Part shown: in pieces, positions 6,356 to 6,715 of the stretch
Position numbering within the stretch: position 1 is the stretch's first letter
How the letters are laid out: every line of letters starts with the position of its first letter
Virus record (IMG/VR): IMGVR_UViG_2671181188_000016
DNA length: 8,419 nucleotides
Reading direction: 5' to 3' (one strand)
From: a virus
Taxonomy: Duplodnaviria > Heunggongvirae > Uroviricota > Caudoviricetes
Notes under the pieces: model-generated
What the model saw: only the letters and a program-made list of their open reading frames with translations
What the model was told of the DNA's origin: nothing
The model's database searches: none
Program-made: the position numbers and the translations under genes

Positions 6356-6550
6356 GTGGAAGAGATAAAGCAAAGCGCTACCGTGATGATTGATCACGAG
6401 ATCCTAAACGAGCTTAAAAAACTTCAATTCGATGTTATTCGCCGGATGAATGAAGCTGGTATATACGGCAGAGCCGCCACGCCAACAATAGGTCATCTTG
6501 CACGTGTGCTGTTACGCGAAAGACTGGGCATTGCAACAGGTGAGGCATAA
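6356..6550 (+). CDS. Hypothetical 64-aa protein (GTG start), first gene of the putative packaging operon
   Basis: Strong SD AGGAGG (6343-6348) about 7 nt upstream of GTG 6356; stop TAA 6548-6550. An AT-rich region with weak promoter-like hexamers (TTGATT 6294-6299; GATAAT 6303-6308) precedes it. Confidence 0.5.
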   Translation: MEEIKQSATVMIDHEILNELKKLQFDVIRRMNEAGIYGRAATPTIGHLARVLLRERLGIATGEA

Positions 6551-6553
6551 CAA

Positions 6554-6715
6554 ATGGCTATCACAGAACGCGAGGCAAGCATCATTAAGGCCATTGGCGA
6601 GGAAACAAGAGACACCATAGCGCCATTGATGGAAAAGATCGCAGAGCTTGAGACACGAATAAACAAGCTGAGTAATGAAGTTGAAGGCCTGATCTCGTTA
6701 CTCGGTGAGCAATGA
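6554..6715 (+). CDS. Hypothetical 53-aa predicted helical / coiled-coil protein (not in the ORF track, below its length cut-off)
   Basis: ATG 6554 is only 3 nt after the preceding stop and in the same frame; translation MAITEREASIIKAIGEETRDTIAPLMEKIAELETRINKLSNEVEGLISLLGEQ has heptad-like hydrophobic spacing; stop TGA 6713-6715. Confidence 0.4.
   Translation: MAITEREASIIKAIGEETRDTIAPLMEKIAELETRINKLSNEVEGLISLLGEQ

What the first reader, a model, noticed from the sequence alone, without database searches (positions are those of the whole stretch)
6356..6715. Two tiny in-frame ORFs separated by TAA-CAA, the second a predicted coiled coil
The 64-aa ORF (AGGAGG-GTG start) ends with TAA, and 3 nt later in the same frame a 53-aa heptad-like helical ORF begins. 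So either these are two tightly coupled small proteins or a single product made by stop-codon read-through. Small helical dimers in satellite packaging modules can act as internal scaffolds or interference proteins.
Basis: inference. Interest (0 to 1): 0.4.

Follow-up and report, generated by a model that had tools for sequence, protein, structure and literature searches.

The report
Two separate small satellite genes
The two tiny in-frame ORFs are real but separate genes: a DNA-binding ribbon-helix-helix protein and a leucine-zipper-like helix, conserved as a pair in phage-satellite islands of enteric bacteria, and their shared reading frame is a coincidence, not stop-codon read-through.

Summary
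In detail: ORF1 (6356-6550, AGGAGG-N7-GTG) ends in TAA, and three bases later ORF2 (6554-6715) starts in the same frame.

Read-through is refuted as a designed feature. In related islands the same gene pair is separated by +2, +3, +9, +10, +13 or +14 nt, or overlaps by 10 or 20 nt. It uses all three stop codons, and only 3 of 9 junction types are in frame, which is what chance gives. An E. coli relative has TAA-CA-ATG. All 37 ORF2-family and all ORF1-family proteins found are small and unfused. Every ORF2 has its own Shine-Dalgarno.

Both genes are under purifying selection. ORF1 folds as a ribbon-helix-helix protein. ORF2 is one long helix with four perfect heptads and an invariant C-terminal EVEGLISLLGE that is encoded by many synonymous codons.

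The pair is satellite-specific, with no phage homologues. It follows a terminator and a repeat-bearing promoter region downstream of the replication module. It ends about 40 nt upstream of a conserved cos-like site shared with HNH-TerS lambdoid Stx phages.

The function is untested. My best guess is that ORF1 autoregulates this promoter and ORF2 is a dimeric adaptor that binds a conserved helper or host protein. This is a modest lead, not a recoding event.

The parts
6244..6261 (+). Intrinsic-terminator-like hairpin plus T-run that closes the upstream (replication / phrog_1231) unit. The ORF1-ORF2 unit therefore needs its own promoter.
   Evidence: 7-pair stem, 5 GC pairs, TTTTTTT tail. An equivalent terminator precedes ORF1 in every related locus.
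6262..6342 (+). Promoter/operator-like region. It holds direct repeats (A)ATGATAA at 6300 and 6331, 31 nt apart; TGATTA at 6294 and 6321; and a weak -35/-10 candidate, TTGATT (6294-6299), 17 nt, AATACT (6317-6322).
   Evidence: Repeats; they are conserved in E. coli relative L017. The -35/-10 is my own reading, 8 of 12 matches, below the threshold of the scan, which found no promoter here. Relatives with a different ORF1 beta-strand carry a different conserved motif, GTTGCAT(T/A)T(T/A)GATCAACA, once per locus.
6343..6348 (+). Shine-Dalgarno AGGAGG for ORF1, 7 nt before the GTG start.
6356..6550 (+). ORF1: 64 aa, GTG start, TAA stop. Ribbon-helix-helix fold, putative DNA-binding regulator.
6539..6545 (+). 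GGTGAGG, the Shine-Dalgarno for ORF2, inside the 3' end of ORF1 and 8 nt before the ATG.
   Evidence: All 12 related junctions examined carry a purine-rich SD 5-10 nt upstream of the ORF2 start.
6548..6556 (+). Junction TAA-CAA-ATG: ORF1 stop, 3-nt spacer, ORF2 start.
   Evidence: Variants in E. coli are TAA-ACA-ATG and TAA-CA-ATG.
6554..6715 (+). ORF2: 53 aa. A single long amphipathic helix with a leucine-zipper-like C-terminal half and an invariant C-terminal EVEGLISLLGE.
   Evidence: AlphaFold2 helix 5-51, pLDDT 94.3. Heptad test. 37-member alignment, all 47-61 aa, invariant V43-E52. The motif is encoded by many synonymous codons. dN/dS 0.09-0.3.
6719..6790 (.). Putative cos site: G8 run (6719-6726), inverted repeat 6720-6736 / 6753-6769, core GGACACCGCCCCCGTCTCA (6756-6775), then an A/T-rich tract.
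   Evidence: Conserved non-coding block shared with the Hafnia and Salmonella islands and with the HNH-TerS intergenic region of Stx1a phage. The core occurs once per locus. 77 phage records match. Of 120 IMG/VR loci with the core, at least 80 have an HNH ORF just upstream. RNA hairpin of -35.8 kcal/mol, z -2.5.
6800..6822 (+). Two direct repeats AAAAGTTACAC. Candidate cosB, the binding site for the island's own TerS.
   Evidence: One copy is present in the same place in the Hafnia and Salmonella islands that encode TerS. The phage and the TerS-less satellites have GTTAACATGTTAAC instead. The function is inferred.
6845..7333 (+). Island-encoded small terminase subunit (context, not part of the pair).
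   Evidence: PF03592 E 1.9e-10; phrog_641 E 1e-43.

Best explanation
ORF1 and ORF2 are two independently translated genes of one short transcription unit in a PICI-type phage satellite. The window carries integrase, AlpA, a D5-type primase, iterons, TerS and a capsid-like gene, inserted between cspD/yljB and clpS.

Shown here:
- The pair is a conserved, satellite-specific cassette.
- It sits after a terminator and a repeat-bearing promoter region, downstream of the replication module.
- In most relatives it ends about 40-80 nt upstream of a cos-like core shared with HNH-TerS-TerL lambdoid (Stx-type) phages.
- The common reading frame in this window is accidental.
- ORF1 has a ribbon-helix-helix fold.
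- ORF2 is a single helix with four canonical heptads (a = Ile/Val, d = Leu) and an invariant C-terminus.

Inferred:
- ORF1 dimerises through its N-terminal strand and binds the repeated motifs in its own promoter region. That would autoregulate the unit and, by transcription running through cos, possibly the terS/capsid-like genes.
- ORF2 forms a parallel dimeric zipper. Its invariant C-terminal end docks on a highly conserved partner, either a helper packaging or head protein or a host protein. It would then act as an adaptor or interference factor rather than as part of ORF1.
- Translation of ORF2 starts at its own SD, probably helped by termination-reinitiation coupling.
For: Separate genes:
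- Junctions of +3, +2, +9, +10, +13, +14, -10 and -20 nt with TAA, TGA or TAG stops.
- Serratia L009 and L010 differ by a 1-nt spacer indel that changes the frame without consequence.
- No fused protein among 3+6 ORF1 hits and 36 ORF2 hits.
- Every ORF2 has its own SD.
- RefSeq calls two CDSs in every annotated record examined.

Real proteins:
- dN/dS is 0.05-0.3.
- The invariant EVEGLISLLGE is encoded by 2-5 synonymous codons at nine of its eleven positions, including Ser as both TCN and AGC.

Folds:
- RHH; helix, heptads, GCN4-zipper-like matches.

Separability:
- The Hafnia island keeps ORF2 at 60% identity but has a barely related RHH-like ORF1.
- L007 has ORF1 without ORF2.

Context:
- Synteny in E. 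coli, Hafnia, Serratia, Klebsiella and Salmonella islands.
- A terminator and a unique repeat motif lie upstream.
- The operator-like motif changes where the ORF1 beta-strand changes: KGVSVMLD with GTTGCAT..GATCAACA, QSATVMID with ATGATAA repeats, KGFSVHID with TATCTATTTT repeats.
- cos-like site.

Satellite-specific:
- No tblastn hit for either protein in 50,697 phage genomes.
Against: - No sequence profile (Pfam, NCBIfam, PHROGs, PDB sequences) identifies ORF1 as RHH.
- The consensus scan found no sigma-70 promoter between the terminator and ORF1. The promoter may need an activator, and ORF1 could be an activator or could bind elsewhere.
- The strand/operator co-variation rests on only three specificity groups.
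- Nothing tested here identifies ORF2's partner or oligomeric state.
- Trace-level read-through of this particular TAA cannot be excluded from sequence alone.
Confidence: 0.6

Rival explanations
1. Programmed stop-codon read-through fuses ORF1 and ORF2 into one 118-aa protein, an RHH domain plus a coiled-coil oligomerisation domain, as in TraM.
For: - The frames coincide in this window and in most E. coli copies.
- The best structural match of ORF1 is TraM, which has exactly that two-domain layout in one chain.
Against: - The frame relation is not conserved: 6 of 9 junction types are out of frame or overlapping.
- The stop is TAA here, the least leaky stop in E. coli (established knowledge).
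- The spacer codon varies (CAA, ACA, or only 2 nt).
- There are no fused homologues.
- ORF2 always has its own SD and start.
Confidence: 0.03
2. ORF2 is a helper-directed morphogenesis or interference protein, analogous to the small helical dimer CpmB or to Ppi of SaPIs. Its invariant C-terminus binds the helper capsid, portal or terminase. ORF1 is merely its transcriptional regulator.
For: - It is a small helical zipper with a strictly conserved C-terminal peptide.
- Every island that carries ORF2 also carries a capsid-like gene that matches only the C-terminal (capsid) part of protease-capsid fusion profiles, so it appears to lack the N-terminal scaffold region.
- It is satellite-specific.
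- CpmB works through its C-terminus (my own knowledge of the SaPI literature, not checked here).
Against: - No similarity to the scaffold region of a helper-type protease-scaffold-capsid fusion.
- It cannot be a Ppi-like TerS inhibitor, because satellites that lack terS and carry the phage-type cosB still keep ORF2.
- There are no interaction data.
Confidence: 0.25
3. ORF1 and ORF2 together form a cos-proximal DNA-processing accessory complex, a 'split TraM'. ORF1 binds DNA at the right genome end. ORF2 oligomerises and bridges to the helper TerL/HNH, favouring cleavage or termination at the satellite cos.
For: - In most loci ORF2 ends 40-80 nt before the cos core, the position that HNH occupies in the phages.
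- ORF2's invariance parallels the near-invariance of the cos core across genera.
- The RHH top hit is an oriT-accessory protein.
- L007, which lacks ORF2, also lacks the cos core in its contig.
Against: - In the Serratia-type islands a 2.4-kb tape-measure gene and a 75-aa gene lie between ORF2 and cos, so adjacency is not obligatory.
- The ORF1-associated repeats are in the promoter region, not at cos, and occur once per locus.
- No repeat shared between the promoter and cos was seen.
Confidence: 0.1
4. The pair is a toxin-antitoxin or anti-phage defence cassette carried as satellite cargo (RHH antitoxin plus small toxin).
For: - Satellites often carry defence genes (literature, listing).
Against: - No PADLOC, Pfam or NCBIfam match.
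- ORF2 is a 53-aa soluble, charged helix unlike known type II toxins.
- The cassette sits at a fixed core position between the replication and packaging modules in all relatives, not in a variable cargo hotspot.
Confidence: 0.04

Closest known systems
Ribbon-helix-helix DNA-binding proteins (CopG/Arc/MetJ superfamily; TraM N-terminal domain, NikR N-domain, ParD/MazE antitoxins)
   Different: No detectable sequence-profile membership in any Pfam RHH family. There is an unusually long loop (GIYGRAATPT) between the helices. DNA binding is untested.
F-like plasmid TraM (RHH domain plus helical tetramerisation domain in one chain)
GCN4-type parallel leucine zippers
   Same: ORF2 residues 22-50 have a = I/V and d = L heptads. 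The profile weakly matches GCN4 constructs, best E 0.0046.
   Different: The match is compositional, not homology. A Gly (G45) sits inside the invariant motif. The N-terminal half has an irregular register and a 4-residue indel among relatives.
SaPI small helical morphogenesis/interference proteins (CpmB, Ppi) and E. coli PICI Rpp
   Same: These are satellite-encoded small proteins placed in or next to the packaging module that act on helper proteins. Rpp also dimerises by a C-terminal coiled coil (PMC6739421).
   Different: Rpp is a 139-aa winged-HTH TerS mimic (PMC6739421), whereas ORF1 and ORF2 are neither. There are no PDB sequence hits to Rpp. ORF2 persists in satellites that use the helper TerS, so a Ppi-like role is unlikely.
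Gram-negative PICIs with TerS and a capsid homologue (e.g. elements of strains IHE3034 and 18098 in PMC6092414; HE-PICIs in PMC10111431)
   Same: The island has integrase, AlpA, primase, iterons, TerS and a capsid-like gene, is about 8.4 kb, and has no tail or lysis genes.
   Different: None of the PICI papers in the held library mentions a ribbon-helix-helix protein. The passages I read of four PICI papers do not describe this small-gene pair. The presumed helpers are HNH-TerS-TerL cos phages rather than lambda or phi80.

Membership tests
Programmed stop-codon read-through (recoding) | The downstream ORF is kept in the same frame as the upstream ORF across homologues | tested here: not met
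   Frame offsets of 0, 1 and 2 all occur, and gaps run from -20 to +14 nt. E. coli 90-3040 and IMG/VR L052 have a 2-nt spacer.
Programmed stop-codon read-through (recoding) | A conserved leaky stop and context (typically UGA/UAG with a defined 3' context) | tested here: not met
   Stops are TAA, TGA and TAG, and the spacer sequence is variable.
Programmed stop-codon read-through (recoding) | Fused or extended homologues exist, or a fusion product is detected | tested here: not met
   All ORF2-family proteins are 47-61 aa and all ORF1-family proteins 54-80 aa. Detecting a product needs an experiment.
Ribbon-helix-helix superfamily (ORF1) | Beta-alpha-alpha topology of about 45 residues | tested here: met
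Ribbon-helix-helix superfamily (ORF1) | Significant match to an RHH sequence profile | tested here: not met
   No Pfam, NCBIfam or PDB-sequence hit.
Ribbon-helix-helix superfamily (ORF1) | Dimer with a two-stranded antiparallel sheet that binds repeated DNA sites | not testable with these tools
   Only monomer prediction is available. Repeated motifs do exist upstream, but binding is untested.
Parallel coiled coil / leucine zipper (ORF2) | Continuous helix with hydrophobic a/d heptad positions | tested here: met
   Helix 5-51. 8 of 8 a/d positions are I/L/V over 28 residues; 5 of 5000 shuffles reach this.
Parallel coiled coil / leucine zipper (ORF2) | Defined oligomer in solution | not testable with these tools
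   A dimer is expected from a = Ile, d = Leu. That rule comes from the GCN4 mutant literature (my own knowledge), not from a test here.
NusG antitermination factor (name attached to ORF2 homologues in NCBI records) | NGN and KOW domains, about 180 aa | tested here: not met
   53-aa single helix with no NusG or KOW hit in Pfam or NCBIfam. The name is spurious.
SaPI CpmB-like internal scaffold / helper scaffold mimic | C-terminal segment resembling the helper's scaffolding region | tested here: not met
   hhalign of the ORF2 family against a helper-type protease-scaffold-capsid fusion: probability 0.06%. Only one helper-type protein was tested.
SaPI CpmB-like internal scaffold / helper scaffold mimic | Changes capsid size or binds the capsid protein | not testable with these tools
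   Needs electron microscopy or interaction assays.
PICI-type phage satellite (the island carrying the pair) | Integrase, AlpA, primase-replicase followed by iterons, small size, packaging genes, no tail or lysis genes, specific att site | tested here: met
   an 8.4-kb island between yljB and clpS. Helper-dependent induction and transfer are untested.
Type II toxin-antitoxin / defence cassette | Recognisable toxin or defence-protein family next to the RHH gene | tested here: not met
   PADLOC, Pfam and NCBIfam give nothing beyond coiled-coil noise.

The most novel reading that the evidence does not exclude
ORF1 and ORF2 form a split, TraM-like nucleoprotein accessory dedicated to the satellite's cos end. 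The RHH protein marks satellite DNA. The invariant tail of the zipper recruits or re-programmes the helper's HNH-TerL nuclease, so that cos cleavage or termination favours the satellite. This would be a new kind of satellite packaging-specificity factor for HNH-dependent cos phages, distinct from TerS homologues, Rpp and Ppi.
Probability: 0.1. Interest if true: 0.6.

Novelty: new member of a known kind. Interest (0 to 1): 0.27.

Why it matters
The recoding idea, the eye-catching part of the finding, is wrong, so no new translational mechanism is at stake.

What remains is a conserved, uncharacterised two-gene cassette. It is present in about 4% of complete E. coli genomes, mostly Shiga-toxin-producing serotypes, and in Salmonella, Klebsiella, Serratia, Hafnia, Citrobacter and Enterobacter satellites. 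It sits between the replication module and a cos site shared with Stx-converting phages.

How TerS-encoding Gram-negative PICIs that parasitise HNH-dependent cos phages control and target their late functions is not worked out. An RHH regulator and a small zipper with an absolutely conserved C-terminal peptide are concrete, cheap-to-test candidates.

The result also corrects a propagated misannotation ('antitermination protein NusG').

Tried and rejected
- **Read-through fusion.** Rejected on comparative junction data and the absence of fused homologues.
- **ORF2 as a fragment or mimic of a portal N-terminus.** PHROGs gave weak hits to phrog_1289 and phrog_2271. However, the portal that follows the ORF1 homologue in L007 has no ORF2-like N-terminus. 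I treat the hits as coiled-coil noise.
- **ORF2 as a scaffold mimic of the helper protease-scaffold-capsid fusion.** No similarity.
- **Tail-assembly chaperone G/GT-like pair preceding a tape-measure gene.** Considered because Serratia relatives have a tape-measure gene right after ORF2. Rejected because the sizes and folds are wrong and most islands have no tape-measure gene.
- **The phrog_1231 protein (5974-6225), or ORF1/ORF2, as Rpp.** No PDB sequence hit, and Rpp is a 139-aa wHTH protein (PMC6739421).
- **Defence or TA cassette.** No PADLOC hit.
- **Known RNA instead of protein.** No Rfam match in the region, and codon-level selection argues for protein.
- **DNA-level constraint (for example a cosQ-like site) as the cause of the invariant ORF2 C-terminus.** Rejected because synonymous sites vary freely.
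- **Searches that led nowhere.** Foldseek of the ORF1 model against the PDB and BFVD gave nothing significant. The genome-contig scan with the ORF2 alignment matched 22 stretches, but none passed tblastn. The afdb_sample library was unavailable. The promoter regions had only chance-level matches in phage genomes.
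Full report
**1. The observation**

The sequence shows AGGAGG (6343-6348), seven bases, then GTG at 6356. A 64-codon ORF follows and ends with TAA at 6548-6550. CAA comes next, then ATG at 6554 opens a 53-codon ORF ending with TGA at 6713-6715, in the same frame. The description is accurate.

The second ORF is heptad-like. Residues 22-46 place I, I, I, V at a positions and L, L, L, L at d positions, and only 5 of 5000 shuffles do as well. AlphaFold2, using a 37-sequence alignment, predicts one continuous helix over residues 5-51 (pLDDT 94.3).

**2. Where it is**

The window is an 8.4-kb island of the PICI type. Its parts are:
- integrase (1-1224);
- AlpA (2086-2310);
- DUF4222 protein, then a D5_N/DUF5906 primase (3930-5684);
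- GGTAGAGGG iterons (5693-5925);
- a phrog_1231 gene (5974-6225);
- an intrinsic terminator (6244-6261);
- the two small ORFs;
- a small terminase (6845-7333);
- a 53-aa ORF;
- an HK97-type capsid-like gene that runs to the end of the window.

In E. coli UTME-4 the same island (98.6% identity) lies between cspD/yljB and clpS. RefSeq annotates the two ORFs there as separate hypothetical proteins. A second E. coli island with a different integrase, att site and replicase carries the same module, from the phrog_1231 gene to the capsid-like gene, at about 95% identity. The pair is present in 220 of 5,426 complete E. coli genomes, many of them O103, O111 and O157 strains. It is annotated as two CDSs in all 25 records listed.

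**3. Are the ORFs genes, and is the shared frame meaningful?**

Homologues of ORF1 are few, small (54-80 aa) and unfused. A profile search with ORF2 relatives found 36 proteins of 47-61 aa in Escherichia, Salmonella, Klebsiella, Serratia, Hafnia, Citrobacter and Enterobacter. None is fused to anything.

Genomic contexts recovered for ten of them show the same order every time: replication gene, iteron-rich spacer, terminator, ORF1-type gene, ORF2-type gene, then packaging or capsid-like genes.

The junction between the two genes differs from island to island:

| Islands | Junction | Frame |
|---|---|---|
| Window; E. coli RM9322 and UTME-2 | +3 nt (spacer CAA in the window, ACA in the other two) | in frame |
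| E. coli 90-3040; IMG/VR L052 | +2 nt (TAA-CA-ATG) | out of frame |
| Hafnia L003 | -10 nt (overlap) | out of frame |
| L008 | -20 nt (overlap) | out of frame |
| Serratia L009 | +9 nt | in frame |
| Serratia L010; L005 | +10 nt | out of frame |
| L015, L016 | +13 nt | out of frame |
| L011, L012, L013, L019 | +14 nt | out of frame |

L009 and L010 are otherwise nearly identical and differ by a single-base indel in the spacer. Stops are TAA, TGA and TAG. Three of nine junction types are in frame, which is the chance expectation. Every ORF2 start has a purine-rich Shine-Dalgarno 5-10 nt upstream; in the window it is GGTGAGG at 6539-6545. Read-through as a selected mechanism is therefore refuted. 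Only trace, unselected read-through of this TAA remains formally possible.

Both ORFs are under purifying selection. For ORF1, dN/dS is 0.08 (window vs L017), 0.05 (L013 vs L015) and 0.14 (L005 vs L009). For ORF2 it is 0.09-0.3. The C-terminal EVEGLISLLGE of ORF2 is invariant in all 37 sequences. It is nevertheless written with several synonymous codons at nine of its eleven positions, including Ser as TCG, TCC, TCT, TCA and AGC. The constraint therefore acts on the peptide, not on the DNA.

The two genes are also separable:
- The Hafnia island keeps ORF2 at 60% identity, but the gene in the ORF1 position has no BLAST similarity. hhalign gives only a weak, RHH-patterned alignment.
- One metagenomic island has an ORF1 homologue followed directly by a portal gene and no ORF2.
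- Between the window and L017, ORF1 carries a patch of mostly synonymous divergence (dS 0.61) while ORF2 is almost identical (dS 0.03). This is a recombination mosaic.

**4. What the proteins look like**

ORF2 matches only coiled-coil noise: GCN4 constructs, TSC22, TRIM_CC. The name 'antitermination protein NusG', carried by many NCBI records for this family, has no basis. There are no NGN or KOW domains, and the protein is a 53-aa single helix.

Neither protein has any tblastn match in 50,697 phage genomes. Neither matches a defence-system model. The cassette is satellite-specific.

**5. Flanking signals**

*Upstream.* Every locus has a terminator, then about 85 nt containing repeated motifs, then the ORF1 Shine-Dalgarno.
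- Islands whose ORF1 strand reads K-G-V-S-V-M-L-D share GTTGCAT(T/A)T(T/A)GATCAACA. This is preceded by a second TTGCA..ATTGAT copy and occurs once per locus.
- The E. coli group (strand Q-S-A-T-V-M-I-D) instead has (A)ATGATAA twice, 31 nt apart, plus TGATTA twice.
- The Hafnia island (K-G-F-S-V-H-I-D) has TATCTATTTT repeats.

This three-way co-variation is the only, and modest, evidence that ORF1 binds its own promoter region. The consensus scan found no good sigma-70 promoter here. My hand-read candidate is TTGATT, 17 nt, AATACT, which scores 8 of 12. These promoter regions have no counterpart in phage genomes.

*Downstream.* Four bases after the ORF2 stop begins a G8 run and a 17-nt imperfect inverted repeat. 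The block ...ATCACCCTGGACACCGCCCCCCGTCTCA..GTAGAAAA follows. This block is conserved in the Hafnia and Salmonella islands. It is also conserved in an Stx1a-converting phage, where it lies between an HNH endonuclease gene and the TerS and TerL genes. The core GGACACCGCNCCC occurs exactly once in 13 of the 16 loci held at that point and once in the window, against 0.01 expected by chance. Two further loci (L009, L010) carry a 2-mismatch variant in the same position. The block matches 77 lambdoid phage records, mostly Stx-converting. In 120 IMG/VR loci with the extended core, at least 80 have an HNH ORF ending just upstream and 4 have ORF2. This is the layout of HNH-dependent cos packaging modules, as discussed for cf-PICI helpers in 10.1101/2022.09.08.507074. 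I therefore call it a putative cos site.

Islands with their own terS follow the core with AAAAGTTACAC (twice in the window, 6800-6822). The phage and the terS-less satellites follow it with GTTAACATGTTAAC. This fits distinct TerS recognition sites. In the Serratia-type islands, a tape-measure homologue and a 75-aa gene are inserted between ORF2 and cos, so adjacency of ORF2 to cos is usual but not obligatory.

**6. Mechanism**

*Shown:* there are two separately translated small proteins, one with an RHH fold and one a heptad helix. They are encoded by a conserved satellite-specific bicistronic unit with its own promoter region, located just upstream of the cos-like site.

*Inferred (about 45% each):*
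- ORF1 dimers bind the repeats in the promoter region and autoregulate the unit. Because no canonical terminator intervenes, they may also control read-through transcription into terS and the capsid-like gene.
- ORF2 forms a parallel dimer. The rule that a = Ile and d = Leu favours dimers comes from the GCN4 literature (my own knowledge). ORF2 would use its invariant C-terminal peptide to hold a conserved partner.

That partner is unlikely to be the helper TerS, because terS-less satellites that use the phage-type cosB keep ORF2. Helper TerL, HNH, portal or capsid, or a host factor, remain possible.

Section 7 and the rival entries compare the alternatives: a morphogenesis or interference protein in the CpmB/Ppi sense, a split TraM-like cos accessory, and a TA cassette.

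**7. Comparison with the known**

- ORF1 works like, and probably is, a divergent RHH protein. The fold test is met and the profile test is not.
- ORF2 works like a leucine zipper.
- The pair resembles TraM split in two, but it is not a TraM family member.
- It is not Rpp, which is a 139-aa wHTH TerS mimic (PMC6739421).
- Gram-negative PICIs with TerS and capsid homologues are known (PMC6092414, PMC10111431). No PICI paper in the held library mentions a ribbon-helix-helix protein, and the passages I read of four PICI papers do not describe this small-gene pair.

**8. Verdict**

The finding is real as an observation and ordinary as a phenomenon: adjacent, coupled small genes that happen to share a frame. 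The value that remains is a well-defined, conserved, unannotated (and in places mis-annotated) satellite gene pair with a testable role next to the cos site. Interest is 0.27, and the novelty class is a new member of a known kind.

Noticed in passing
window 6719-6790 (core 6756-6775); L002 2493-2781; L003 8215-8290: A conserved non-coding block, G8...ATCxCCCTGGACACCGCxCCCxxTCTCA..AGAAAA. It is shared by the island, by Hafnia, Salmonella and Klebsiella satellites, and by 77 lambdoid phage records, mostly Stx-converting, where it lies between HNH and TerS. It is probably the cos site. In 120 IMG/VR loci, at least 80 have an HNH ORF just upstream.
   Followed up: yes
window 6800-6822; L002 about 2560-2700; L005 8880-8900; L009 about 9890: After the cos core, satellites with their own terS carry AAAAGTTACAC (two copies in the window). 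The phage and the terS-less satellites carry GTTAACATGTTAAC-type repeats. This suggests two alternative cosB / TerS recognition sites.
   Followed up: partly
window 7345-7506: A 53-aa ORF between terS and the capsid-like gene matches only the C-terminal part of the small-terminase profile (phrog_641 positions 89-125, E 8e-7). It is conserved in relatives (for example L007 7698-7859). It may be a mini-TerS decoy or adaptor.
   Followed up: partly
L009 7181-9577, L005 6407-8803, L011 8434-10836, L015 8431-10728: Serratia and Klebsiella relatives of this satellite encode a full-length tail tape-measure homologue (about 765-800 aa; phrog_2854, E 1e-165). It lies either right after ORF2 or after the capsid-like gene. 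This is unusual cargo for a PICI-type element.
   Followed up: partly
L013 1-14171 (Salmonella GCA_011674575.1): This island carries the same ORF1-ORF2-cos-terS module and is flanked by Terminase_2 fragments. A protease-capsid fusion and a portal gene follow it. It looks like a helper-embedded PICI inserted in a prophage terS gene.
   Followed up: no
ORF2 family, NCBI records listed: Many GenBank/RefSeq entries name this 53-57-aa protein 'antitermination protein NusG'. Nothing supports the name: no NGN or KOW domain, and the protein is a single helix.
   Followed up: yes
window 5974-6225: The 83-aa phrog_1231 gene just upstream is far more widespread than the ORF1-ORF2 pair: matches confined to it account for most of the 1,285 of 5,426 E. 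coli genomes hit by the 5900-7400 query, against 220 genomes for the pair. It has no PDB or Pfam match, and its function is unknown.
   Followed up: no
window 5693-5925: A dense array of direct and inverted GGTAGAGGG / CCCTCTACC repeats lies immediately after the primase gene. These are very probably the island's replication-origin iterons. Relatives have different iteron sequences (GTGAGGAG, AAGTGCGCG) in the same place.
   Followed up: partly
window 6395-6545 versus L017 7345-7495: There is a patch of 80-88% identity, mostly synonymous, inside ORF1, within an otherwise 96-100% identical module. dS is 0.61 for ORF1 and 0.03 for ORF2. This indicates a recombination mosaic with a breakpoint near the ORF1/ORF2 junction.
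   Followed up: partly
L007 5659-7146: A metagenomic island has an ORF1 homologue (70 aa) followed 9 nt later by a 421-aa portal gene instead of ORF2. The 9.6-kb contig contains no cos core.
   Followed up: no
window 7487-8419 and L003 8944-9909, L009 10030-10974, L019 7643-8596: Every island with the pair carries a capsid-like gene of about 290-320 aa. It matches only the C-terminal (capsid) part of protease-scaffold-capsid fusion profiles (phrog_617, phrog_10), so it is a capsid homologue without its own scaffold or delta region.
   Followed up: partly
L034 (IMGVR_UViG_2534681991_000035, 8420 nt): This IMG/VR viral contig is 8420 nt long, one base more than the window. Its ORF2, junction sequence and cos core are the same as the window's, each lying one base further along. 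It is not an exact copy: a string comparison with the window failed.
   Followed up: no
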